DNA of 64,000 bases from Patescibacteria group bacterium (GCA_018817715.1 JAHITT010000006.1:75147-139146); one strand, 5' to 3'; numbered from the stretch's first letter, positions 8,314 to 63,367 are shown. Notes: generated by a model not told the origin, from the sequence alone. Numbers and translations are program-made.

Positions 8314-8388
8314 TCTGGGGTAGTTCAAAGGTAGAACGCTGCGCTGTTAACGCAGATGTTGAAGGTTCGAGTCCTTCCCCCAGAGCCA
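8314..8388 (+). tRNA. tRNA-Asn (anticodon GUU)
   Basis: cloverleaf read by hand: acceptor UCUGGGG/CCCCAGA, D stem GUUC/GAAC, anticodon stem CUGCG/CGCAG with loop CUGUUAA, T arm GAAGG-UUCGAGU-CCUUC, discriminator G, encoded CCA. Confidence 0.85.
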
Positions 8389-8496: not shown

Positions 8497-8766
8497 ATGT
8501 ATTACACTTATGTTCTCCATTCTATCAAAGATGGACAACTATATACAGGCTATACTCCCAATCTAAAAAGTCGGATTAAATCCCACCAAGATGGCTATGT
8601 CACAGCAACAAAAAGTCGGCGTCCTCTAATATTAATATATTATGAATCATTTATAGTCGAATCTGACGCTAAACGAAGAGAACTTTTTCTAAAAGGTGGC
8701 AATGGTAAAAAAGAATTAGAAAAAATCTTAAAAGATTATTTCAAAAATAATCTCTGGCATAAATAA
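8497..8766 (+). CDS. GIY-YIG nuclease-domain protein
   Basis: YTYVLHS...GQLYTGYT..NL..R...H...E motif pattern of GIY-YIG; 89 aa. Confidence 0.7.
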   Translation: MYYTYVLHSIKDGQLYTGYTPNLKSRIKSHQDGYVTATKSRRPLILIYYESFIVESDAKRRELFLKGGNGKKELEKILKDYFKNNLWHK

Positions 8767-9020
8767 AATGAACATCCCAAAAACAAAACCTTAAAAACTA
8801 TCTTATTTAATTTTTAACTAATATCTATATCTATTTACGGAAAAAAACACGGTGACGGCATTGTCGGCGGCATATACGGCCTAGGGCTAATTGGTGCAGC
8901 AGTTTATTATATCCAGCAGGCTGACAGCTTTGTTGTAGGCCTTTTAGGCGTACTTAAGGCTATTATTTGGCCAGCCATGCTAATTTACAAATTAATGCAC
9001 TTTTTAGGCATGTAATTTTA

Positions 9021-9059
9021 TAGGCTTATTCGTACGAATAAGCCTATGATATCCACAGG
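9021..9059 (-). repeat. palindromic repeat element copy A (inverted, diverged)
   Basis: TAGGCTTATTCGTACGAATAAGCCTA perfect 26-bp palindrome plus TGATATCCACAGG arm; related to copies at 55747 and 61350. Confidence 0.8.
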
Positions 9060-9070
9060 GTATATAAATT

Positions 9071-9292
9071 ATGTTTTTTCAAAAAAAGTTATCCTTATCT
9101 TATTTAAGCAAAAATTTGTCTGTAGTGGTGGGTTTGGTTTTGGTCTGGCGGGGGATTTGGTACATACTGGACTGGTTGGACTATGAATTATGGGGTGGTT
9201 ACCACGGCTGGACAGCTTTGGGCGGAGTGGTGCTGGGTTTGTTGATTTTATATCTACCCGACAAAGACTTAAAAGAGATCCAAAAACTCTAA
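9071..9292 (+). CDS. small membrane protein
   Basis: 73 aa, two TM helices. Confidence 0.35.
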   Translation: MFFQKKLSLSYLSKNLSVVVGLVLVWRGIWYILDWLDYELWGGYHGWTALGGVVLGLLILYLPDKDLKEIQKL

Positions 9293-52328: not shown

Positions 52329-53990
52329 TTACAGTTCACAGGTTTTTTGTTTTAGCTCTTCATCAAAAACTTTTTTATTTTCACTGTAATCTATAGGACA
52401 ATCTATTATTTGCACCCCGCCTAAAACCTTAGCTTTATCTAAAGCCTTGGTAAAACCTTCAGCCGATTCTACTTTTAAACCACCAGCGCCAAAACTTTTA
52501 GCTAAACTAACAAAGTCGGGGTTAGTAAAATCTAAACCAAAATCAGTAAAACCCATTTGCTGTTGTTTCCACTTTATCATACCCAGGCCTTTGTCATTTA
52601 AAACAACCACTACTAAATCCAAACTCAAACGAACAGCTGTTTCCAAGTCGCCTAAAGACATCATAAACCCGCCATCACCCACCACGGCCACCACCAATTT
52701 TTCCGGATTAAGTAATTTAGCCGCCATAGCCGAAGCTAAGCCGGCGCCCATAGTAGCTAAAGCGTTATCTAACAAAACTGTATTAGGTTCCCGAGCAGGA
52801 AAATTCCTAGCCAGCCACAATTTATACATACCATTATCCAAAGCCAAAATACTGTCTGCTGGCATAAAATCCCGCAAGTCTTTAGCTAATCGTTGCGGTT
52901 TTAAAGGCCAAGCTGAATCGTCAGCTTTTTCTAAAATATGTTCTTTTAATTTTTGGCTTAACTTTTTATAATAAGAAAAATCCCAAACAACACTAGGTTT
53001 AATTTTTTCGGCCAGCGCCCACAAAGAATGAGCAATATCGCCTACCACTTCCAAGGTTGGCGCATAAACATAATCCACATCCGCCTCGGAAAAATTTATA
53101 TGAATAACCTCTCTGTCACCCTGAGCCATAATTAACGGCGGTTTTTCCACTGTTTCATGACCAACAACAATTAATAAATCTGCTTTTTGCAAAGCGCAGT
53201 GAATATAATCTCCCTCGCTTAAAGCTGTATTGCCGATATAACATTCTTTGGTTTCGTCTAGCACGCCTTTACCCATTTGCGTGGTTATAAAAGGAATACC
53301 GGTTTTTTTTACAAACTCGCTTAAGTGCTTATGAATTCTTTTGCGATTGGCCCCAGCGCCAATTACTATTAACGGCCGTTGAGCTGACATTATTTTGTTA
53401 GCCGCCTCGGTAATAGCTTTGGGGTCGGGCCCGGGTCGTCTAACTTTTACTGGCAACAAAACTTGCTTGTCGGTTATATCTTCGGCTATATCCTCAGGCA
53501 GTTCTAAATGAACCGCGCCCGGCCGTTCGCTTTCGGCCACTTTAAAAGCTTCCCGCACCATAAAGGGCGCCCGATCAGCGCTAACTATAGTACTAGCCAG
53601 TTTAGTAACCGGCTCCATCATTCTAACCACATCTAATATTTGAAAATGACCTTGCCTAGATTTACGCAAAGCTTTTTGCCCAGTAATTATAATAAGTGGC
53701 ATACCACCTAAATTGGCATAAGCCGCGCCGGTTACCAAATTGGTAGCACCGGGGCCCAAGGTACTTAGCACCACGCCAGCTTTACCTGTTAAACGGCCAT
53801 AAGTAGCCGCCATAAAAGCGGCGGTTTGCTCGTGTCTGGTTAAAATAAACTTTATTTGCGTTGATTTACTTAAAGCTTGTAACAAAGACAAATTTTCCTC
53901 ACCAGGCAAGCCAAAAACATATTTTACGCCTTCTGTTTCCAAGGCTTCCACTATAATTTCCGCTGCTGTTTTAGGGTTTTTATTTAACAT
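52329..53990 (-). CDS. thiamine-diphosphate-dependent enzyme, acetolactate-synthase-like
   Basis: N-terminal AAEIIVEALETEGVKYVFGLPGEENL, TPP-binding GDGGF...NN motif. Confidence 0.8.
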   Translation of the reverse strand: MLNKNPKTAAEIIVEALETEGVKYVFGLPGEENLSLLQALSKSTQIKFILTRHEQTAAFMAATYGRLTGKAGVVLSTLGPGATNLVTGAAYANLGGMPLIIITGQKALRKSRQGHFQILDVVRMMEPVTKLASTIVSADRAPFMVREAFKVAESERPGAVHLELPEDIAEDITDKQVLLPVKVRRPGPDPKAITEAANKIMSAQRPLIVIGAGANRKRIHKHLSEFVKKTGIPFITTQMGKGVLDETKECYIGNTALSEGDYIHCALQKADLLIVVGHETVEKPPLIMAQGDREVIHINFSEADVDYVYAPTLEVVGDIAHSLWALAEKIKPSVVWDFSYYKKLSQKLKEHILEKADDSAWPLKPQRLAKDLRDFMPADSILALDNGMYKLWLARNFPAREPNTVLLDNALATMGAGLASAMAAKLLNPEKLVVAVVGDGGFMMSLGDLETAVRLSLDLVVVVLNDKGLGMIKWKQQQMGFTDFGLDFTNPDFVSLAKSFGAGGLKVESAEGFTKALDKAKVLGGVQIIDCPIDYSENKKVFDEELKQKTCEL

Positions 53991-54963: not shown

Positions 54964-55671
54964 ATGAATCTACAAAAATTAATGGAGCATTTTTTTAAAC
55001 TCTACGGCAAAAGAAATAGAATATTCCTGCAAAACTTATTGCAGCGCATAGTCTTTTTAAATCTGGCTATAGCCGATTTACAAGAAGCTATCAGAAAACA
55101 AGCCGACCCAGCTGATTTAAAAATAGCTTTAGCAAGAATAGTGTCTAGAATTTTCTGCGTAGCCGATTACTTTGCTAGCGACCAACTGGCGGTTGTTATG
55201 TCTCAAAAATACCCCAATAGCCATTGCAGTTACTGCCAAAAATTACCTTGTAAGTGTCCAGAAAAAAGACCTAGCAGTATATTAACAAATCCAAACCCTA
55301 CTCAACTGAACTGGACCTTAAAACAATGGTGCCGACATTTTAAAAAAATCTACGGCGCTAAAAATAAATCCAAGGGTCTTGAAAATATTCTTAACCGCTT
55401 GTTCAAGGAAATAAGCGAACTATTGATACTAGCTATGAAAACTCCCAGCACTTTTTCCGCCCATACAACCATAGACGACATAGAAATAGAATTTTCCAAA
55501 GAACTAGCTGATACTCTAGCCTGGACAATAGCTATAGCCAATTTATTGACAGTTGATTTAGAACAAGCTGTTTTGGAACGTTATGGTAATGGCTGCTGGA
55601 AGTGTCATAACACTACCTGTACCTGCACGGAATTCAATTATGACCAAGTGTTTTGGCCATCGGTAAAATAA
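54964..55671 (+). CDS. MazG-like nucleotide pyrophosphohydrolase-domain protein with Cys clusters
   Basis: two helical EExxD-like segments (ELADTLAWTIAIANLLTVDLEQAVLERYG) plus CSYCQKLPCKC and CWKCHNTTCTC. Confidence 0.35.
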   Translation: MNLQKLMEHFFKLYGKRNRIFLQNLLQRIVFLNLAIADLQEAIRKQADPADLKIALARIVSRIFCVADYFASDQLAVVMSQKYPNSHCSYCQKLPCKCPEKRPSSILTNPNPTQLNWTLKQWCRHFKKIYGAKNKSKGLENILNRLFKEISELLILAMKTPSTFSAHTTIDDIEIEFSKELADTLAWTIAIANLLTVDLEQAVLERYGNGCWKCHNTTCTCTEFNYDQVFWPSVK

Positions 55672-55746
55672 TAATTATTATGACCAAGTTGTTTAAAAAA
55701 CAACTTGGTTTTTTAATATTAAAAACAACAAAATAACCTAAATTAA

Positions 55747-55786
55747 CCTGTGGATAACATAGGCTAATTCGTACGAATTAGCCTAT
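55747..55786 (+). repeat. palindromic repeat element copy B
   Basis: CCTGTGGATAACAT + TAGGCTAATTCGTACGAATTAGCCTA; identical 40 bp to copy C. Confidence 0.85.
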
Positions 55787-55793
55787 AAAGAAA

Positions 55794-56615
55794 TTATTTA
55801 AAGGGATGAGACTTTTTAAACTCTTCTAGGACTCCAGATTTTTTGGCTATGGACAACAATTTTTTATGCAAATGTTTGTTACTTAATAAAGCGCCTTTAA
55901 TAAACCCGTTATACTTTTGTTCCTTCCCCCATAAATCTGTTACCTTACCACCAGCTTCCTCCACCACTATTTTAGCCGCCGCAATGTCATGGGCTAATTT
56001 ACCATTAAATATACAACCATCAAACCCGCCAGTAGCTATTAAAGAAGCCGCTTCAGCTACCGAATAAACCTCGGGCGTGCGAGCGTTTTGTTTATGAAGT
56101 AAAACAGAAGCGGACGAACTTTTCCAACCGGTTTTTATTAAAGCGCCAGCCAAAATTTTTTTATTGCTTACTGATAACTTAAAATTCTTTTCCACCAAAT
56201 AAGCGCCCTTGCCTTTTTCGGCCAGTACTGTGCGCCTGGCTAAAGGATTACACAGCACTCCAGCCACTGGCCGACCATCTATAACAATAGCGGCCGAAAA
56301 AACAAACAACGGCGCGCCAATAATAAACATATGCGTGCCATCTATGGGGTCCACCACAAATAATTTACGACCAATTGTTTTAGAACTTATTTCTTCACCC
56401 AAGACATCAAAATCCGGGTAAGCCTTGGCCACCTCGCGCAGAACCATTTGGTTAACAGCAATGTCGGCCTTGGTTACGGCATCCAATCCCCAATCAGCCT
56501 TTTTATTTTTAATAGTATAACTTACCCCACAAGGATTGTAATACTTAAGCATTAGCCGACTAGCTTTGCTGGATAAGTTTAATAGGAATTTTGTTTGCTT
56601 GCTAAATTTTTTCAT
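55794..56615 (-). CDS. inositol monophosphatase family protein (IMPase/SuhB/CysQ-like)
   Basis: VVDPIDGT and GGFDGCI-like motifs of IMPase fold. Confidence 0.75.
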   Translation of the reverse strand: MKKFSKQTKFLLNLSSKASRLMLKYYNPCGVSYTIKNKKADWGLDAVTKADIAVNQMVLREVAKAYPDFDVLGEEISSKTIGRKLFVVDPIDGTHMFIIGAPLFVFSAAIVIDGRPVAGVLCNPLARRTVLAEKGKGAYLVEKNFKLSVSNKKILAGALIKTGWKSSSASVLLHKQNARTPEVYSVAEAASLIATGGFDGCIFNGKLAHDIAAAKIVVEEAGGKVTDLWGKEQKYNGFIKGALLSNKHLHKKLLSIAKKSGVLEEFKKSHPFK

Positions 56616-56687
56616 AAAGACAAATTAAGATTGCCATTCAAAACTATCTCCCAACCAACCGCTTTGGATAACAAGTTTGTAGTAAAA

Positions 56688-59429
56688 TTATTCTTTATCA
56701 AACAATGTTGGCTTCTGTCCGTTTGTAAATTCTTCGGTTGCCAATTCCTTGTGGCGTAATTCGTCATATCCCTCAAAATCGCTCACGCTCGCAATTTTAA
56801 CTGCCTTGAACCCTCTTTTTTCCATTGCCTTGTCCACGAGGAAAAAAGTTTGAACGCCGCCCTCTTTTTCTAAAAGTTTTAGGGCTTTCTTGCGGTCATC
56901 AATTTGTTTCGCTTCGGCAAGATGCTTGCCTTTAACATCAACGACTATCCACTTGCCTTCGATAAACGCAAGAAAGTCCGGATAAAATGGTGCTGGCTTT
57001 ACTTCAACGGGATACTCAAAAGGATCATTTCTAACCCAAAAACTTTTCTTTTTCTTGTCCAATGAACAAAGATGCTCCAAAGCGTCAGCGACCCATTTTT
57101 CGGGCGGCGAATCAAACTTTACAAACGGACGAGCAGAAAATTTATATCCTTCAACAATAATACCTTTCTGCTGTAAGTGCGAGGACATGGGTTGATGAGA
57201 AGGAATCAAGTTGAGAGTAAGTCCGTCTCGTTTTCTAACAGTAATTTTGCCATCCACAAAAATATCTTTTACATTTTTCTTTCGGAATATAAATTGTCTC
57301 TTGAACATCAATTCAAATGCGCCTTGTCCGTAAAATTCAATAATACTCTTTTTTAGAGCTTTCAAGGCGCGTTTATAGTCCACCGCGTAGGCGGTATCAA
57401 CCTGTATTCCGGCACCAATAATGTTTTCTATCAGCTTCTTTGCAGTATCAAATGAGTTATTTCCGATAAATGAGCCAGTTTGTTCTATAAAATCTAACGC
57501 CCAGCGCGCAATTTCGTTTTTAGGCAAAGCTATTGTTCTGCGGGTAGTCGCTGGCTTGTCAGTCTGCATGGCGATTTCATCAGTTGTAATTTCCGCATAG
57601 TCAATCATTGCCAAAACTTCTGGCTTTAGAACTTTGTCACCCTTGGAAAGCCCGCACACCTCATCAACAAACGCTTTAACGCTTAACGATTGATCTTTTA
57701 GCGCGTCTTCAAAACTTTTACCGGTTGCAGTTGGTTTGATCTGCAAAATTGGAATTTCGTAGTCATCAATAATTTTTCTGTTTACTTTATTCTCGCGGTC
57801 TTCTTCCTCGGTTGGAATTTCAACATTTGCCGGCGACAATGCTAATTTTTGCCGAATTTCTTCTACGATTTGATCAAAGCGGCGGCCCCTCTCGCAAATA
57901 ACATGTAAAATTTCGCTCTGCTCTTTTAGTTCATCGCCCAAAATATCAAACTCCCGTTTTTCTTTGTAAAGTCGGAGACCACGCCCGATAAGTTGGGCCG
58001 CCGCGAGACCAACTTTCTCAACAGTATCGCCCAAAACAACGATTGTATAAAAATTGTCGTAATCAACGCCCTCGGTGAATATACGGACTTGGTTTACAAC
58101 TTCGGCATTATTGTCGTCGAGCGATTGATAATCTGTCCAGACCTCTTCCTCGCTTTTATTTTCGCTATGAATGGTGAAAACAGATTTTGCCACTCGCGAC
58201 AATTTTTTTACTAATTCTGATTTGTTTTTTGGTATATTCGTACGAACAATTTTAGCAATATCGGTTCCTTCACGATTTACTTGTTCCAACACATCATCAA
58301 GCTCGCCCGCAACCGAATCAGGCCAATTTTTGAGATAATCATCAATCGCGTCCGCGTGTTTTATAGTTCTTGCTTTGGTAAGCAACATCGCTTTTTTCAC
58401 TGGCGCGTTAGCGGCGGCAAGCGACTCGGTTTTTAGCAAATGAATCAACATGCCCCAAACCAATTTCTGCTTATCACTATCGGTCACTTCGTCTGAAATT
58501 TTCTCGTCGCTTGTTCCGCAACCAACCGCAAAAATCCTCTTGCCATATCCCTCTCCAATATATCTTTGCATTGGATACTTGTATAAGTTGTCTTGTCCAA
58601 AACTCTCGCTACCACCTTTTTCAAGTGATGTTGCGGTAAATTCCAGCACAGCGCTCGGCAAGAGCTCAAAAATTGCTTCTGCGGTTTTCTTTTGCTGGTA
58701 GTGGTGTGCTTCATCAGAAATAATGACTGGCCGCTTTTCGCGTAAAAATTCCACAAACGATATGGTGTGTTGCCCGCTTTTATCACGCCACAATGATTCT
58801 TCAAGCGGCCGGCGAACATATGGTGTCCCTTTCATTGTATCTTCACCGTCTTTTTTGTTCGATGAAGCCGCTTTATCGTAAAACTTCTGCATGTTGAAAA
58901 CATAGAAAGAAACGTCGCGATCATCTTCGTAATTGCAGGTTTTATCACGATAAGAATTTCCCGTAACCAAGTTGTAGGTTAAATTCCAACCGTCGCCAAA
59001 AATGCTTTTTACTGCGCGCGGCGTAAAGTTTTCTATCGTCTTATCAAACAAAATTGTGTTCGGAGTGAGAATAAGAAAATCTCTAAAACCTCGGTGGTAT
59101 AAGTCCAAAATCGCCGCGCCCATCAAAAGGGTTTTGCCGGAACCGGTCGCCATTTCAAAACCGACCTTATTCCACCCAACAATCTTATCGTCATCGTCTT
59201 TTCCTTGTTGAAGTGTTTTCTGCTTTAAGCTCCGGCTGTCAAACTTGTCTTTCCAAAAAAGTTGAAATGCGCTCAATGCTTCTATTTGATACGGGCGCAA
59301 GGCAAATTTAAGCAAATGCTGTATCTTTTCGTAATTCTCAATCGTTTTTGGCGACGGCGAACCGACGGCAATTTTGTATTGCTGGTCTTGGCTCACTAAA
59401 TCGTAAAATGTTTGCGGTTTTGTTCTCAT
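56688..59429 (-). CDS. res: Type III restriction enzyme Res subunit
   Basis: SF2 helicase motifs (ATGSGKT, DEAHH) and C-terminal PD...DVK nuclease motif; ATGA overlap with mod stop. Confidence 0.85.
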   Translation of the reverse strand: MRTKPQTFYDLVSQDQQYKIAVGSPSPKTIENYEKIQHLLKFALRPYQIEALSAFQLFWKDKFDSRSLKQKTLQQGKDDDDKIVGWNKVGFEMATGSGKTLLMGAAILDLYHRGFRDFLILTPNTILFDKTIENFTPRAVKSIFGDGWNLTYNLVTGNSYRDKTCNYEDDRDVSFYVFNMQKFYDKAASSNKKDGEDTMKGTPYVRRPLEESLWRDKSGQHTISFVEFLREKRPVIISDEAHHYQQKKTAEAIFELLPSAVLEFTATSLEKGGSESFGQDNLYKYPMQRYIGEGYGKRIFAVGCGTSDEKISDEVTDSDKQKLVWGMLIHLLKTESLAAANAPVKKAMLLTKARTIKHADAIDDYLKNWPDSVAGELDDVLEQVNREGTDIAKIVRTNIPKNKSELVKKLSRVAKSVFTIHSENKSEEEVWTDYQSLDDNNAEVVNQVRIFTEGVDYDNFYTIVVLGDTVEKVGLAAAQLIGRGLRLYKEKREFDILGDELKEQSEILHVICERGRRFDQIVEEIRQKLALSPANVEIPTEEEDRENKVNRKIIDDYEIPILQIKPTATGKSFEDALKDQSLSVKAFVDEVCGLSKGDKVLKPEVLAMIDYAEITTDEIAMQTDKPATTRRTIALPKNEIARWALDFIEQTGSFIGNNSFDTAKKLIENIIGAGIQVDTAYAVDYKRALKALKKSIIEFYGQGAFELMFKRQFIFRKKNVKDIFVDGKITVRKRDGLTLNLIPSHQPMSSHLQQKGIIVEGYKFSARPFVKFDSPPEKWVADALEHLCSLDKKKKSFWVRNDPFEYPVEVKPAPFYPDFLAFIEGKWIVVDVKGKHLAEAKQIDDRKKALKLLEKEGGVQTFFLVDKAMEKRGFKAVKIASVSDFEGYDELRHKELATEEFTNGQKPTLFDKE

Positions 59430-61149
59430 AGTAATTTATATTCTCTCAAAATTGCTGCCGGTATCTTTTTTACCATAACGCGATCGTCCAACGAATCTGG
59501 CGGCACGGAAACGGCGACATTGGTAAAAATTGTTAGGTGTTTGAATTTTTCTCTTTCCAATTCGGCAATAATTTTTTCATATAGATCAGCCGTTAGTGTT
59601 TTTACTTCTCTTGAAGCAAAAGAAATGGCGAAATGATAGCGTGCAGATTGGTGCTTGCCGAGATACATACCTTCCTTCTCCACCCACTTCGTCTCTATCG
59701 GTCTGTATTGGAAATGTAAAAATACTGCTTCGGCCATTTCTGCTGCTTTCAGCGACCAATTCATATCTTGTTCATGTATCACGCTCTCGCCTAGTTGGTA
59801 GTATTTGAACCCTCCGCCACCTTTCCAGTTCACATCCTTGCTTATCCCTGTTTGATCTTTCCCAGAGATGATTTTTTGTAGGCGTGGCATGATGAGTTCG
59901 TCAGCGTGACGTCCCATTTCTACCATAATCCAACGACGTTCCATTTTGTGCGCCACGGCTCCCGTGGTCCCAGAACCAGCAAAAGAGTCAAAAACCAAAT
60001 CATTTTTTCAGTCGAGATTGAGATAATACGCTGTATAAGTTTTTCAGGTTTTTTTGATTTGGGAAAGTCAACCCCTCCTTCGCCCGCAATTCCTTCCCAA
60101 GAAATATCGTCCCAAATATCTGTTATCGCCTCTACTGGCAATAGATTTCCATCCACTTCCTGTAATCTTTCTCTATAAAATAGGACTCTCTCGCCCCCAA
60201 TGAATAAATAGTCCATATCATCATTTGGATGTCTAACAATTTTATTCTTGAGTTTGCGCGACTTTTCAAGAGTCTTAATCCTCTTGAGACGAGCTCCACC
60301 AGTAACCGACGCCGTACGAAAGACTCTCTCGGCATTTTTAATTGCAAAAACTCCTCTTTCAGCATTAAATTCATCCTCTCTTAATTCTTTTTTTGCGTCC
60401 CTTGCATTTGAAAATCCAAGCTCTAGCGCCACAACTTCATCAATATTCTTCCATGACCATTTATCTTCTGGTTTTTTTATATCGTCAAAAACCCAACGAT
60501 ATGCTTGATCATATCCCTTTTCAATAAATGTCTTTTTGAATTTCAGTTGAGCAGAGTCTTTTGCGAAAATCAAAAGGTTATTTGCTGATTTGAAAAGCTG
60601 ATTTGAAGTGTGCTTAAAACCAAAAGGACTATTTGCTTTTATAGTCACAGTATTTAGATAATTCTGTCTGCCAAATGTCTCATCAAGCAAAACACGGCAA
60701 TACGCGACTTCTTTATCATCCAAATGTACGAAAAGAATCCCGTCCTTTCTCAAGAGTTTGCGTAGCAGAAACAACCTGTCGCGCATCATTGTTAGCCATT
60801 CAGAATGTTCAAGATTGTCGTCATAGTGTTTGAAGGCGTTCCCTGTATTAAATGGAGGGTCAATATAAATACATTTCACTTTTTCCTTATCCGGTCGGCC
60901 CTTAAACATCTCAACCAAACTTCGCAAAACTAACAAGTTATCGCCCTTGATAAGCATGTTATCGCCTGTCTTGTCGCCAAAGTCTTTGGCAAAGCGTAAA
61001 ATGCGCGGTTCGGCAACGCGAATATCATTTTTCGGCACCCAAACCGGCCGGACACCCTTGCCCTCCTTTTCGTCAATTTCGTAGTAAAGCGAAAGGTCTT
61101 TGTTTATCCAATCCAGCCGTAACGAGCCCTTGTAACTTCTTTTTTGCAT
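59426..61149 (-). pseudogene. mod: Type III N6-adenine DNA methyltransferase Mod, split by -1 frameshift at a T6/A6 tract (60003-60008)
   Basis: upstream part carries DPPFN (motif IV), downstream part FDSFAGSGTTG (motif I); one extra A would fuse the frames into ~574 aa. Confidence 0.75.
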
Positions 61150-61151
61150 AA

Positions 61152-61290
61152 TTACTTTATTAAATCATCTAAGGTAACACTAAGAGCCTTAGCGATTTTC
61201 CGCCAGAGGAGGACAGATTTTAACTATCTCAATAGTCGGATTAGGGGTGGCGCCGGCTTTGATTTTGGCCATAGTTAGCATATTCATATA
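61152..61290 (-). pseudogene. degraded HTH (XRE/C-protein-like) gene fragment upstream of mod
   Basis: translations ...ATPNPTIEIVKI... and ...RKIAKALSVTLDDLIK* in two adjacent frames; matches only the C-terminal helix pattern of XRE HTH domains. Confidence 0.3.
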
Positions 61291-61349
61291 GCTTTACTAT
61301 ACCAAAAATTACCAAACAAGATAACTAAGCTAAAATCAGCCAAAACCAG

Positions 61350-61389
61350 CCTGTGGATAACATAGGCTAATTCGTACGAATTAGCCTAT
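61350..61389 (+). repeat. palindromic repeat element copy C
   Basis: CCTGTGGATAACATAGGCTAATTCGTACGAATTAGCCTAT identical to copy B. Confidence 0.85.
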
Positions 61390-61623
61390 GAGGAAAATTT
61401 AGGCCAAAATTCAAAAAATTATAAAATCCTATCAGATTGCTTCCTCCTTCGCTATCCTCCTTTATTAAAATTTCGGCAGGACTAGAAGCTACGGCGGACA
61501 AGTCGTCGCCGTGCTCCTCGCAATGACAAAGGAAATATCATCGCGCCCTTCGAATCCATTAACTTATCCCAAACAAAAAAACAGACTAATGTCTGTCATC
61601 TTATAAACCATTTATGTACAAAG

Positions 61624-61694
61624 CTGGGAGACATGGATTCGAACCATGATTACCAGGGCCAGAACCTGGCGTCCTACCATTAGACGATCTCCCA
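61624..61694 (-). tRNA. tRNA-Gln (anticodon CUG)
   Basis: hand-folded: acceptor UGGGAGA/UCUCCCA (U1-A72), D stem GUCU/GGAC, anticodon stem CCAGG/CCUGG with loop UUCUGGC, T arm CAUGG-UUCGAAU-CCAUG, discriminator G, CCA not encoded. Confidence 0.8.
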
Positions 61695-61765: not shown

Positions 61766-63367
61766 TTAGACTAACTCACCGCCAAAAGTGCTTAAAACAT
61801 TACTAAGCAAATCCCCGCTTTTTCCCTTAGTAACTTCTTCCATTTCAGTCTTAACCAAAATAGTTCCGCCGATAACCTGGCTTAAAACATCTTCTACCTG
61901 CTGTCTTATTTTTTTATCTCGCACTCTTTCCTGATGCAATTTATATTGAAAACTAATAGTTAATTCATTACCAACCAATTTAAACGGTTTGGCAATACTA
62001 AGAATAAAAGATAATGAATGATTAAGGTCCCGTAATTTATTTATTACCTCGGCCCAGTCTTGGTTTATTTTTTCCAAGGTTAATTCAGCTGAAAGTGTTT
62101 TGGCCCCTAATTTAGGCTGTTGTGGCTCGGCTGGTTCCACTACTGGCGCCAGAATAGGTTTAACCGCTTCTAGAGGCTGGTTAGTCTTAGCCGCTGGCGG
62201 ATTAATCTTGCTAGATGGCTTGGTAATACTTTCTTCGTTCTGGCAAATATTTATAACTGCCAATTCCAAAGGAATTTGAAAAGACTGCGATTGTTTTCTT
62301 AAATTATCCACTTCCAGCCAAATAACCATCATCCTTTGCAAAGCATTTTGGCTTATCTTTAAAGCCCACTGAGCCAGTTCTTTTTCTTGCTCCTCTTTTA
62401 GTTGCAAGGAAGAATAATCTGTTAAATTGCCACCTAATTTATAAAGAAGTAATTTACGCAATAATTCCAAAACCTGGCTATAAAAATAACCTAAATCTCC
62501 GCCAGCTAATAAAAAATCATTTAATTCAGCAATAGCCTGAGCTGACGAATTATTGACTAAATGACCAATAAAGCCCAAAGCAATAGCCGCGTCGGCCCTG
62601 GGTAAAACCAAACCGGCTTGAGCATAAGTAATAGTGGCTTCGTTTAAGCTTAACAGTTTACCTAAATAACTTTCGGCATCCCGCGTAGAACCATTGGCTA
62701 AATGAGCCACTTCGCGCAAAACATCCTCGGCTATATCCACCTTTTCGGCAGCGGCTAATTTTTTTAAACGAATCATCAGGTTAGCCACGGCTAAACGATG
62801 AAAATCAAACCTTTGGCAACGGGATAAAATTGTTTCGGGTAATTTATGCGGCTCGGTGGTGGCCAAAATAAAAATAACGTGGGCTGGCGGTTCTTCCAAA
62901 GTTTTTAACAAAGCATTAAAAGCTTCGTTAGTTAACATATGCACCTCGTCAATTATAACCACTTTATATTTAGACCGGGCCGGACCATAAGGCACCTTAT
63001 CTCTAACTTCCCGAATGTCGTCTATACGCCTGTTAGAAGCCGCGTCAATCTCGATTAAATCCAAAGAACGCCCCTTATTTATTTCCAAACAAGACTGACA
63101 CTTATTGCAGGGCTCGGCCAGATTATTTTTTCTGGTTTCACAATTAATCGATTTAGCTAAAAGTCTGGCCATAGTGGTTTTGCCAACTCCCCTGGTACCA
63201 CAAAATAAATAAGCATGGGTTAGCTTATTATTAATAATTTCCTGTTCAATAATAGTTTTTACATGATCCTGCCCAATAACTTCGGCAAAGGTGCTGGGAC
63301 GATATTTACGGTAAATTGTTTCAGTCATAGCAAAACTTATTGTAACGCGTAACTGCCGCTTAAGCAA
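61766..63367 (-). CDS. dnaX: DNA polymerase III subunit gamma/tau
   Basis: AAA+ clamp-loader motifs GTRGVGKTT, zinc module CETRKNNLAEPCNKCQSC, SRC. Confidence 0.9.
   Translation of the reverse strand: MLKRQLRVTISFAMTETIYRKYRPSTFAEVIGQDHVKTIIEQEIINNKLTHAYLFCGTRGVGKTTMARLLAKSINCETRKNNLAEPCNKCQSCLEINKGRSLDLIEIDAASNRRIDDIREVRDKVPYGPARSKYKVVIIDEVHMLTNEAFNALLKTLEEPPAHVIFILATTEPHKLPETILSRCQRFDFHRLAVANLMIRLKKLAAAEKVDIAEDVLREVAHLANGSTRDAESYLGKLLSLNEATITYAQAGLVLPRADAAIALGFIGHLVNNSSAQAIAELNDFLLAGGDLGYFYSQVLELLRKLLLYKLGGNLTDYSSLQLKEEQEKELAQWALKISQNALQRMMVIWLEVDNLRKQSQSFQIPLELAVINICQNEESITKPSSKINPPAAKTNQPLEAVKPILAPVVEPAEPQQPKLGAKTLSAELTLEKINQDWAEVINKLRDLNHSLSFILSIAKPFKLVGNELTISFQYKLHQERVRDKKIRQQVEDVLSQVIGGTILVKTEMEEVTKGKSGDLLSNVLSTFGGELV

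What the first reader, a model, noticed from the sequence alone, without database searches (positions are those of the whole stretch)
55747..61389. Type III restriction-modification island bounded by identical 40-bp direct repeats next to tRNA-Gln
res (913 aa) has an SF2 DEAH helicase plus a PD...DVK nuclease motif. mod has DPPFN then FxGxG, the beta-class order typical of Type III Mod. Both sit on the minus strand and are translationally coupled by an ATGA overlap. By eye the res/mod DNA is much more GC-rich than the flanks, for example runs like gccgcgagaccaactttctc against neighbours of about 30% GC. The IMPase-res-mod-HTH-remnant segment is bracketed by two perfectly identical 40-bp direct repeats at 55747-55786 and 61350-61389, with a tRNA-Gln gene about 230 bp beyond. 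Foreign composition, tRNA proximity and repeat flanks are a classic signature of a horizontally acquired defence module. The flanking repeats could be the footprints or sites used for its mobilisation.
Basis: partly seen in the sequence, partly recalled or inferred. Interest (0 to 1): 0.7.

Follow-up and report, generated by a model that had tools for sequence, protein, structure and literature searches.

The report
Type III restriction cassette between regulatory palindromes
A horizontally acquired but frameshifted Type III restriction-modification gene pair sits in a candidate-phyla-radiation (Patescibacteria) genome. The two identical 40-bp "flanking repeats" are not insertion scars. They are copies of a 28-bp palindrome that is widespread, though sporadic, across this bacterial group, and that normally brackets a small ArsR-type regulator gene.

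Summary
**Observation.** The 40-bp identical repeats, res, mod, the ATGA overlap and tRNA-Gln are all real.

**What the interpretation gets wrong.**
- DNA homology to the same mod-res cassette in unrelated genomes (81-88% DNA; Res 80-95% aa in Pacebacteria, Omnitrophica, Planctomycetes) spans only 56687-61159. It stops 190 nt and 900 nt short of the repeats.
- The IMPase gene "inside the island" is native.
- dnaX→tRNA-Gln is conserved synteny, not an integration signature.
- There is no integrase and no tRNA-derived att repeat.
- mod carries a 1-nt deletion, so the system is probably dead.

**What the repeats are.** Each repeat is a perfect 28-bp palindrome (ATAGGCTAATTCG-TA-CGAATTAGCCTAT) plus a lineage-specific 12-nt flank.
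- A third copy lies at 9020-9059.
- The exact palindrome core occurs in about 14 Patescibacteria MAGs of very different classes.
- In 56 of 80 metagenomic loci, related palindromes bracket a small ArsR/SmtB-family gene on both sides, often next to tRNA-Gln. The arms change symmetrically.

**Best reading.** The repeats are binding sites of that regulator (inferred, not tested), and the R-M cassette landed between two of them.

**Verdict.** The R-M island is ordinary. The palindrome/ArsR pair appears undescribed and is moderately interesting.

The parts
55747..55786 (-). Repeat copy B: a 28-bp perfect palindrome (55759-55786) plus a 12-nt flank. Read on the - strand it is palindrome→GTTATCCACAGG. 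It begins 7 nt after the IMPase stop codon, in a convergent intergenic region.
61350..61389 (-). Repeat copy C, identical to B. The palindrome is 61362-61389. It lies about 190 nt after the tRNA-Gln terminator and 212 nt upstream of the mod start.
9020..9059 (+). Repeat copy A: palindrome 9020-9047, then GATATCCACAGG. It starts 4 nt after the stop codon (9013-9015) of a small membrane-protein gene and ends 23 nt before the ATG of the next (9071-9292). The site is orthologous in MAG186 (L019). Within the 28-bp palindrome the only difference between the two genomes is one symmetric A/T pair in the arms; the 12-nt flank also differs at one G/T.
56687..61159 (-). Horizontally acquired mod-res cassette. 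This is the block of 81-88% DNA identity to cassettes in unrelated genomes. Homology is interrupted at about 60056-60700, the variable target-recognition region of mod.
56688..59429 (-). res, the Type III restriction subunit. The ORF is intact at 913 aa, with DEAH helicase and PD-(D/E)xK motifs.
59920..61149 (-). N-terminal part of mod (409 aa; DPPFN; matches PADLOC MTase_III profile positions 7-363 of 575). It ends in a frameshifted tail.
59426..59998 (-). C-terminal part of mod in another frame (FAGSGTT; matches profile positions 366-480 of 575). It overlaps the res start by ATGA.
60005..60010 (-). Frameshift site. The window has an A6 run (- strand) with one base missing relative to L033, L028 and L029. 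One extra base restores ...STEKNDLVFDSFAGSGTT...
55794..56615 (-). Inositol-monophosphatase-family gene. It is native, not part of the acquired DNA.
61160..61290 (-). Possible frameshifted C-terminal remnant of an XRE/Cro-type HTH gene. It lies outside the cassette homology block.
   Evidence: weak
61623..61694 (-). tRNA-Gln(CTG), with its own terminator at 61580-61597. Its position after dnaX is conserved in relatives.
61766..63367 (-). dnaX, the conserved left anchor of the variable segment.
52329..53990 (-). TPP-dependent enzyme gene, the conserved right anchor. It is adjacent to IMPase in L021 and follows dnaX-tRNA-Gln-DS in L116.

Best explanation
Two independent features happen to lie together.

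**1. The restriction-modification cassette.** A compact Type III mod-res cassette (56687-61159) was acquired horizontally. It entered the variable segment between the conserved dnaX-tRNA-Gln and TPP-enzyme/aldehyde-dehydrogenase genes of a Patescibacteria genome, upstream of the native IMPase gene. As assembled, mod carries a 1-nt deletion. Because Res depends on Mod for DNA recognition (established knowledge of Type III systems), the system is probably inactive.

**2. The 40-bp 'direct repeats'.** These are two of at least three copies in this window of a lineage-specific version (palindrome + GTTATCCACAGG) of a palindrome found sporadically but across diverse Patescibacteria classes: AT-N-GGCTAATTCG-YR-CGAATTAGCC-N-AT.
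- In most other genomes examined, this palindrome lies on both sides of a small (~86 aa) ArsR/SmtB-family winged-helix gene.
- It most likely is that protein's dimer-binding site, a 13-2-13 operator. It would act on DNA as an autoregulatory operator and, at gene ends, as a roadblock or insulator.

**Shown versus inferred.** Shown here: the sequence facts, the cassette boundaries, the horizontal transfer, the dispersion of the palindrome and its association with the ArsR-type gene. Inferred: that the protein binds the palindrome, and what binding does.

The repeats are therefore host cis-elements that the cassette landed between, not scars or sites of its mobilisation.
For: **Cassette boundaries and horizontal transfer**
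- blastn homology to five loci from different organisms covers exactly 61159→56687.
- The contexts of those loci are all different, with no palindrome adjacent to the cassette.
- Res is 80-95% identical across phyla.
- Composition is deviant.

**Native frame**
- IMPase is 90% aa / 85% DNA identical to L021, where it adjoins the same TPP gene.
- dnaX→tRNA-Gln is conserved in L114-L117.
- L116 has dnaX-tRNA-Gln-...-TPP-Aldedh with different content in between.

**mod frameshift:**. The same split is called in the 531-kb source contig.

**Palindrome**
- A third copy lies 46 kb away in the window.
- The exact 26-nt core occurs in 20 loci of about 14 MAGs from Saccharibacteria to Kaiser-, Kerfeld- and Staskawiczbacteria, with GC from 33 to 61%.
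- It is adjacent to an ArsR (HTH_5) gene in 10 of those 20 loci.
- Starting from the ArsR protein instead, 60 of 80 loci have a 5' copy, 65 of 80 a 3' copy and 56 of 80 both.
- The protein matches HlyU, PagR, NolR, CadC, CzrA and SmtB.
- The arms co-vary: 70.9% of cells are paired vs 62.5% in shuffles and 36-41% in slid controls; columns 15/38 read AU33 / UA30 / CG20 / GC9.
- G-T and A-C mismatches are equal (47 vs 46), so the constraint is strand-symmetric, i.e. at DNA level.
- Sites built from two different half-site types exist.
- Copy number per genome is low.
- There is no T-tract after the stem, no Rfam match and no viral hits.
Against: - No arsR gene lies in this 64-kb window, so the trans factor is inferred from a relative (L015, MAG186).
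- Binding is untested.
- Outer arm positions stay complementary even where they differ between two sites of one locus. A simple dimer-operator model does not predict this; it suggests hairpin or cruciform formation matters.
- Several copies, including copy B, lie between convergent genes where there is no promoter to regulate.
- Copies B and C share extra flank similarity (64 nt at 86%) and are absent at the corresponding places in relatives (L021, L114, L115). A local duplication linked to rearrangement of this segment is therefore not excluded.
- No true empty site was recovered.
- The frameshift could still be an assembly error.
Confidence: 0.72

Rival explanations
1. First reader's model. 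The whole IMPase-res-mod-HTH segment is a mobile island integrated next to tRNA-Gln, and the 40-bp direct repeats are its att-like footprints.
For: - The repeats are identical, direct and bracket the R-M genes.
- The flanks of B and C are more alike than those of copy A.
- Relatives lack palindromes at these two positions.
- The region between dnaX and TPP is variable among relatives.
- Relatives show partial tRNA-Gln duplications, so this tRNA is an integration hotspot elsewhere.
Against: - Foreign homology ends 190 nt and 900 nt inside the repeats.
- IMPase is native.
- No integrase is present.
- There is no tRNA-derived repeat in the window.
- The same 40-mer occurs 46 kb away at a site conserved in MAG186 without any R-M.
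- The palindrome is found across Patescibacteria classes and tied to arsR.
- R-M homologues elsewhere have no such repeats beside them.
Confidence: 0.05
2. The palindrome acts mainly as a nucleic-acid hairpin (RNA or extruded DNA). It could be a factor-dependent or bidirectional terminator, an mRNA-end stabiliser or a processing site at gene boundaries. The ArsR gene would merely be one conserved neighbour.
For: - Hairpins are strong: DNA -10 to -13 kcal/mol and RNA -17 to -21 kcal/mol, z about -5.5 to -7.
- The arms co-vary, and stems extend beyond the core with variable sequence, up to about 24 bp.
- Copies usually follow a gene's 3' end and often lie between convergent genes.
- In 10 loci the palindrome overlaps the arsR stop codon.
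Against: - There is no U/T tract.
- Canonical terminators exist alongside, for example 55682-55710 and 61580-61597.
- No G-U over A-C excess is seen on the sense strand.
- Sites with non-complementary hybrid half-sites persist.
- The inner 10 nt per arm are invariant in sequence, not merely paired.
- Linkage to the gene of a DNA-binding protein, on both sides, is very tight.
Confidence: 0.17
3. The 40-bp unit is a REP/MITE-like mobile palindromic element that has recently spread in this lineage. Copies B and C would be new insertions.
For: - Copies are dispersed and intergenic.
- B and C are absent at the corresponding sites of relatives.
- Core identity is near 100% across distant lineages, yet only about 14 of the GTDB species genomes hold the exact core.
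- Short arrays of 3-4 copies occur upstream of arsR in L089, L101 and L111.
Against: - Copy number is very low: 1-5 per MAG and 3 in about 73 kb here.
- No target-site duplications or transposase were seen.
- The arsR-palindrome-tRNA-Gln synteny is stable across lineages.
- Relaxed matching shows graded, lineage-specific divergence, as expected for vertical descent.
- There are no hits in viral contigs.
Confidence: 0.06

Closest known systems
Type III restriction-modification systems (EcoP15I / EcoP1I type: Mod + Res)
   Same: - mod lies upstream of res with overlapping stop and start codons.
- Mod is a beta-class N6-adenine methyltransferase: DPPF (motif IV), then a variable TRD, then FxGxG (motif I).
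- Res has an SF2 DEAH helicase plus a C-terminal PD-(D/E)xK nuclease.
- Matches to PADLOC MTase_III / REase_III and Pfam ResIII / N6_N4_Mtase.
   Different: - mod is frameshifted here.
- Only about 24-25% identity to plasmid-borne Type III Res.
- The closest relatives are uncultured Patescibacteria, Omnitrophota and Planctomycetota.
- No simple-sequence repeat of the phase-variable kind is present.
ArsR/SmtB-family repressors with 12-2-12 inverted-repeat operators (SmtB, CzrA, CadC, NolR, HlyU)
   Same: - A small winged-helix protein matching Pfam HTH_5 and PDB entries for HlyU, PagR, NolR, CadC, CzrA and SmtB.
- A 13-2-13 inverted repeat lies immediately upstream of its own gene, as for autoregulated family members (the operator format is from general knowledge of the family).
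   Different: - The protein is minimal (~86 aa). Metal- or ligand-binding residues were not analysed, so any sensing function is unknown.
- A second site lies just after the gene in most loci.
- Sites occur between convergent genes.
- The arms are kept complementary and often extended.
- The element is found across Patescibacteria classes with an invariant ATTCG-YR-CGAAT centre.
- Binding is untested.
CIRCE / HrcA
   Same: A long inverted repeat conserved across very distant lineages and recognised by one dedicated repressor (comparison from general knowledge, not tested here).
   Different: The sequence and arm orientation differ (TTAGCACTC-N9-GAGTGCTAA), as do the regulator family and the target genes. 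No chaperone genes lie next to the sites here.
tRNA-linked genomic islands with att direct repeats
   Same: Direct repeats, a nearby tRNA and compositionally deviant defence genes.
   Different: - The repeats are not derived from the tRNA.
- They do not coincide with the foreign DNA.
- No integrase is present.
- The position of the tRNA is ancestral.
REP / BIME extragenic palindromes
   Same: Dispersed intergenic palindromes, frequently after gene 3' ends.
   Different: Only a few copies per genome are seen. They are tied to a regulator gene, and the sequence is conserved across Patescibacteria classes rather than being species-specific.

Membership tests
Type III restriction-modification system | Mod is a beta-class N6/N4 methyltransferase (motif IV DPPY/F before the TRD, motif I FxGxG after it). 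| tested here: met
   IYIDPPFNTG lies in the N-terminal part and DSFAGSGTTG in the C-terminal part. Pfam N6_N4_Mtase matches profile positions 1-181 and 185-217 of 221. PADLOC MTase_III PDLC03636 matches positions 7-363 and 366-480 of 575.
Type III restriction-modification system | Res has an SF2 (DEAH) helicase/ATPase and a PD-(D/E)xK nuclease. | tested here: met
   Pfam ResIII at E = 2.5e-22. PADLOC REase_III. DEAH and YPDF...VVDVK are read in the translation. The nuclease motif is identified by eye only.
Type III restriction-modification system | mod-res operon with an intact Mod, which is needed for both methylation and restriction. | tested here: not met
   The operon and the ATGA overlap are present. 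However, mod is split by a 1-nt deletion relative to three homologues, so the system is a probable pseudogene as assembled.
Type III restriction-modification system | Asymmetric recognition site with hemimethylation. | not testable with these tools
   This needs methylome data.
tRNA-integrated genomic island bounded by att repeats | The direct repeats coincide with the ends of the foreign DNA. | tested here: not met
   Foreign homology spans 56687-61159, whereas the repeats lie at 55747-55786 and 61350-61389. Native IMPase lies between them.
tRNA-integrated genomic island bounded by att repeats | The repeat is a duplicated piece of the target (the tRNA 3' end). | tested here: not met
   The window holds only one copy of the tRNA-Gln 3' half. 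The repeat is unrelated to the tRNA.
tRNA-integrated genomic island bounded by att repeats | An integrase or recombinase is encoded in the island. | tested here: not met
   Pfam scans of every ORF of 150 aa or more across 50.8-64 kb found no integrase or transposase.
tRNA-integrated genomic island bounded by att repeats | An empty site with one repeat copy exists in relatives. | tested here: inconclusive
   The relatives' contigs break in this region (L021, L114, L115). L116 has different genes between dnaX-tRNA-Gln and TPP. None carries a palindrome there.
ArsR/SmtB regulator with its operator | A winged-helix ArsR-family protein. | tested here: met
   HTH_5 scores above the gathering cut-off for all five ArsR-type proteins scanned. 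PDB profile hits HlyU at 2.6e-16 through SmtB at 1e-6. These proteins come from other genomes; none is encoded in this window.
ArsR/SmtB regulator with its operator | An inverted-repeat site of 12-2-12 type next to the regulator gene. | tested here: met
   A 13-2-13 palindrome lies 5' of the gene in 60 of 80 loci, 3' in 65 of 80 and on both sides in 56 of 80. It is also adjacent in 10 of the 20 loci found by DNA pattern.
ArsR/SmtB regulator with its operator | The protein binds the site and controls transcription. | not testable with these tools
   This needs EMSA, ChIP or reporter assays.
Intrinsic (rho-independent) terminator | A stem-loop followed by a U tract. | tested here: not met
   The mean T count in the 12 nt after the stem is about 2.8, which is background. 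The consensus terminator scan does not report the three window copies.
REP/MITE-type repeated element | High copy number in the genome. | tested here: inconclusive
   There are 3 copies in 64 kb and none in a further 9 kb. Exact-core copies number 1-4 per MAG. Complete genomes could not be scanned.

The most novel reading that the evidence does not exclude
The palindrome and the ~86-aa ArsR-like protein form a previously undescribed cis/trans system shared across diverse Patescibacteria classes. In it, the winged-helix protein recognises a hairpin- or cruciform-capable 28-32-bp palindrome placed at gene boundaries: around its own gene, before tRNA-Gln, and between convergent genes. The system would act as a bidirectional transcriptional insulator or roadblock, or as a chromosome-organising, centromere-like site (compare the ArsR-like AspA), rather than as a classical metal-sensing operator.
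Probability: 0.25. Interest if true: 0.65.

Novelty: new member of a known kind. Interest (0 to 1): 0.4.

Why it matters
**For the original claim.** The result is a caution. Identical direct repeats plus a nearby tRNA plus foreign composition looked like a textbook island, but each of the three has a separate, mundane cause. The real mobile unit is just the two R-M genes. That cassette is shared at 80-95% protein identity among Patescibacteria, Omnitrophota and Planctomycetota, which documents recent cross-phylum exchange of a defence cassette with no recognisable vehicle.

**The by-product.** This may matter more. Gene regulation in Patescibacteria is almost unknown, and these organisms have very few transcription factors. 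A 28-bp palindrome that is nearly invariant from 33% to 61% GC genomes and brackets one small ArsR-type gene is a directly testable candidate regulator/operator pair for the group. Saccharibacteria are among the lineages carrying it (L002, L014, L008).

Tried and rejected
- **Terminator reading of the palindrome.** Rejected: no T tract, and canonical terminators lie next to it.
- **Known RNA family.** None at the gathering threshold in the window. None at E ≤ 1 in three ArsR loci apart from spurious miRNA hairpins.
- **Phage or plasmid origin.** The palindrome has 0 hits in viral contigs. res has no viral relatives, and plasmid hits are only about 24% identical.
- **Empty-site search.** Tried through IMPase homologues and dnaX homologues. 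It established synteny and the native status of IMPase and tRNA-Gln, but gave no clean empty site because the relatives' contigs are short. The 97 nt upstream of IMPase in L021 has no significant match in the window.
- **tRNA-derived att repeat.** None in the window.
- **General IMPase-arsR linkage.** Rejected as a rule: only 1 of 80 loci, plus L001 and L022.
- **RNA-strand test.** G-U vs A-C mismatches showed no asymmetry.
- **Conserved promoter elements.** None found at a fixed distance from the palindrome.
- **Relic fourth copy upstream of IMPase (GTTATCCAAAG at about 56650).** Not significant: alignment score 36 vs shuffles 25.6 ± 4.8.
- **Phase variation of mod.** Unlikely: homologues have no homopolymer at that site.
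- **Literature.** Four searches found no description of the sequence or of an ArsR/palindrome system in Patescibacteria.

Full report
**1. What is in the sequence**

The two 40-bp copies (55747-55786 and 61350-61389) are identical, and none is expected by chance. Similarity continues to 64 nt at 86%.

Each copy has two parts:
- a 12-nt flank, CCTGTGGATAAC, which contains the DnaA-box nonamer TGTGGATAA;
- a perfect 28-nt palindrome, ATAGGCTAATTCG-TA-CGAATTAGCCTAT.

The palindrome can fold as a 12-13-bp hairpin. Folding energy is -10 to -13 kcal/mol as DNA and -17 to -21 kcal/mol as RNA, with z about -5.5 to -7.

All genes between the copies lie on the minus strand:
- a doubtful XRE-type remnant at 61160-61290 (HTH_26, E = 0.078, on a hand-repaired peptide);
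- mod;
- res (56688-59429, 913 aa, ResIII, DEAH, PD...DVK);
- an inositol-monophosphatase-family gene, IMPase (55794-56615).

The ATGA overlap of mod and res is real. tRNA-Gln(CTG) lies 233 nt beyond the right copy, followed by its own terminator.

- mod is split into a 409-aa and a 190-aa ORF in different frames;
- a third copy of the 40-mer lies at 9020-9059, with 3 mismatches.

**2. The R-M genes**

PADLOC assigns the two mod pieces to consecutive parts of a single Type III methyltransferase profile (positions 7-363 and 366-480 of 575) and assigns res to REase_III.

Aligned with three homologues, the window lacks one base in ...ACTGA-AAAAATGA.... Adding it restores ...STEKNDLVFDSFAGSGTT... 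The homologues have no homopolymer at this site, so slippage-based phase variation is unlikely.

The window comes from a 531-kb contig whose name suggests a short-read assembly (k141_...), and the same split is called there. The frameshift is therefore probably real, but this is unverified. Because Type III Res depends on Mod (established knowledge of the family), the system is probably inactive.

**3. Is it foreign, and where are its ends?**

*Protein identity.* Res homologues of 80-95% identity occur in Pacebacteria, Vogelbacteria, Omnitrophica/Omnitrophota and Sedimentisphaerales. For comparison:
- the window's IMPase has hits of 90% and 72-75%, then 61% or less;
- dnaX has hits of 73%, 71% and 62%, then 58% or less.

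*DNA homology.* The window matches five such cassettes at 81-88% over exactly 61159→56687, that is, from 10 nt before the mod ATG to the res stop. There is a gap at about 60056-60700, the variable target-recognition region.

*Contexts elsewhere.* The contexts of these cassettes are all different and lack integrases. One mod is split by an IS. None has the palindrome beside it.

*Composition.*
- mod-res is 41.2% GC against 36.2 ± 1.4% for other 4.5-kb windows (maximum 40.0%).
- Its tetranucleotide distance is 0.43 against 0.14 ± 0.01.
- GC3 is about 0.40 against 0.31-0.37 for native genes.
- The immediate neighbours are 37-41% GC, not about 30%.

The acquired DNA is therefore the 4.47-kb gene pair only.

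**4. The frame is native**

- *IMPase.* It is 85% identical in DNA to L021, over the gene only. In L021 it is followed by an ordinary terminator and the same TPP-enzyme gene.
- *dnaX→tRNA-Gln(CTG).* This order is found in MAG186 (L114), GCA_964619435.1 (L115) and a more distant relative (L116/L117). The distant relative then continues ...TPP-Aldedh as in the window, but with a deoxyhypusine-synthase gene in between.
- *No att or integrase.* The window has no second piece of tRNA-Gln and no integrase among the ORFs from 50.8 to 64 kb.

The tRNA proximity is thus ancestral synteny. The dnaX...TPP interval is a variable segment into which the cassette came. No clean empty site could be recovered, because the relatives' contigs end there.

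**5. What the 40-bp repeat is**

*Distribution.* A scan of one genome per GTDB species with TAGGCTNATTCGTACGAATNAGCCTA found 20 loci in about 14 MAGs. All are Patescibacteria, of very different classes and GC content (33-61%).

*Link to an ArsR-type gene.*
- In 10 of the 20 loci the palindrome lies within about 50 nt of the 3' end of an ~86-aa gene, and in three of them also 5' of it.
- That gene is ArsR family: HTH_5 scores above threshold, and PDB profile hits range from HlyU at 2.6e-16 to SmtB.
- Starting instead from the protein, 80 metagenomic loci were fetched. A palindrome with the invariant centre ATTCG-YR-CGAAT is 5' of the gene in 60 loci (modal distance 27 nt to the ATG), 3' in 65, and on both sides in 56.
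- tRNA-Gln follows directly in 14 of these 80 loci and in L001, L009 and L013. This may be why a tRNA-Gln is nearby in the window too.
- In the relative L022 (IMPase 72% identical) the order is motif-arsR-motif-IMPase. General IMPase linkage is nevertheless rare (1 of 80).

*The lineage-specific flank.* In the window's lineage (window plus MAG186: L011, L015, L019, L020), every copy carries the extra flank (C/T)TGTG(G/T)ATA(A/T)C on the same side. In the four copies that follow a gene (window A, B, C and L015), this is the downstream side with respect to local transcription. This explains why 40 nt, rather than 28, are identical.

*Orthologous copy.* Copy A is orthologous in MAG186. Within the 28-bp palindrome it differs only by a symmetric A/T exchange in the two arms; the 12-nt flank also differs at one G/T.

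**6. How the palindrome probably works**

Over 123 distinct instances:
- the inner ten positions of each arm are nearly invariant;
- the outer ones vary but stay complementary: 70.9% of cells are paired against 62.5% in shuffles (0 of 500 reach the observed value) and 36-41% in slid controls;
- columns 15/38 read AU33 / UA30 / CG20 / GC9;
- stems are often extended by further, non-conserved complementary bases.

G-T and A-C mismatches are equally frequent (47 vs 46), so there is no sign of a sense-strand RNA helix. No T tract follows the stem. Sites made of two different half-site types persist. No promoter element is conserved at a fixed distance. Non-arsR copies usually follow a gene's 3' end, and several lie between convergent genes.

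The most economical reading has three parts:
- The element is a DNA site for the dimeric ArsR-like protein. A 13-2-13 repeat is the family's usual operator format.
- It would be autoregulatory at the 5' copy.
- It would act as a roadblock or insulator at gene ends.

Selection for self-complementarity suggests hairpin or cruciform extrusion also matters. Binding and effect are inferred, not shown.

In the window, copy C would place the XRE remnant, mod, res and IMPase downstream of such a site. Copy B closes the unit. Copy A precedes a 73-aa membrane-protein gene.

**7. Comparison and novelty**

The R-M pair is a regular, decaying member of Type III. The 'island with att repeats' model fails three of its defining tests.

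The palindrome/ArsR pair fits the ArsR/SmtB operator paradigm but has unusual traits:
- it brackets the gene on both sides;
- its arms co-vary;
- it is conserved across diverse Patescibacteria classes;
- it is linked to tRNA-Gln.

It has no match in Rfam and none in the searchable literature.

**8. Verdict**

- *Observation:* largely confirmed.
- *Interpretation:* half right. The Type III R-M is foreign, but the repeats, the tRNA and the IMPase are host features.
- *Interest:* low for the island, moderate for the palindrome/regulator pair.

Noticed in passing
window 9020-9059 and 8830-9292: The third copy of the 40-mer lies between two small membrane-protein genes. The upstream one (ending at 9015) has ATA where its MAG186 orthologue has the ATG start, so it has no canonical start codon in the window.
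   Followed up: partly
window 55749-55757 and 61352-61360; also L011, L020: The lineage-specific flank of the palindrome contains a perfect DnaA-box nonamer (TTATCCACA on the - strand). Two of the three occurrences in the window are in the repeats (expected 0.5). GC skew gives no sign of an origin in the window.
   Followed up: partly
window 61390-61580: The ~190-nt spacer between the tRNA-Gln terminator and copy C contains AATGGATTCGAAGGGCGCGA. This sequence is also found after tRNA-Gln in the relative L115 (3544-3563). Its function is unknown and it has no Rfam match.
   Followed up: partly
L114 2956-3140; L115 3298-3723: Relatives carry partial direct duplications of the tRNA-Gln 3' end just after the gene: about 50 nt in MAG186, and short TCTCCCAGCTTTGTA-plus-terminator repeats in GCA_964619435.1. 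These look like integration or excision scars at this tRNA. The window has none.
   Followed up: partly
L034, L036-L038, L042, L043, L045-L049, L107, L109, L110, L001, L009, L013: tRNA-Gln lies immediately downstream of the arsR-palindrome unit in many unrelated Patescibacteria. In other loci arsR sits inside tRNA clusters (Ala/Arg/Val/Pro: L012, L018, L071, L077, L085, L088).
   Followed up: partly
L022 410-440; L050, L052, L055, L056, L059, L063, L078, L079, L081, L082: In ten of the 80 metagenomic ArsR loci (and likewise in L022) the 3' palindrome starts 9 nt before the end of the arsR stop codon, so the TAA stop is the TAA of CTAATTCG.
   Followed up: no
L089 2531-2975; L101 213-1470; L111 655-1640: Short arrays of 3-4 palindromes at spacings of roughly 60-560 nt lie upstream of arsR. 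In L101 small ORFs lie between them.
   Followed up: no
L027 5346-8004: In a 1.5-Mb contig carrying a 91%-identical Res, mod is interrupted by an IS (DDE_Tnp_1). This is a second independent inactivation of mod in this cassette family.
   Followed up: no
window 56640-56660: The 70-nt gap between res and IMPase contains GTTATCCAAAG, which resembles the palindrome's flank GTTATCCACAG. The alignment to copies B and C is not significant.
   Followed up: yes
window 8497-8766: A stand-alone 89-aa GIY-YIG nuclease-domain gene starts about 110 nt downstream of tRNA-Asn (8314-8388).
   Followed up: no
window 54964-55671: A 235-aa cysteine-rich ORF has no Pfam or PADLOC match. It is convergent with IMPase and absent from the IMPase-TPP interval of L021.
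   Followed up: no
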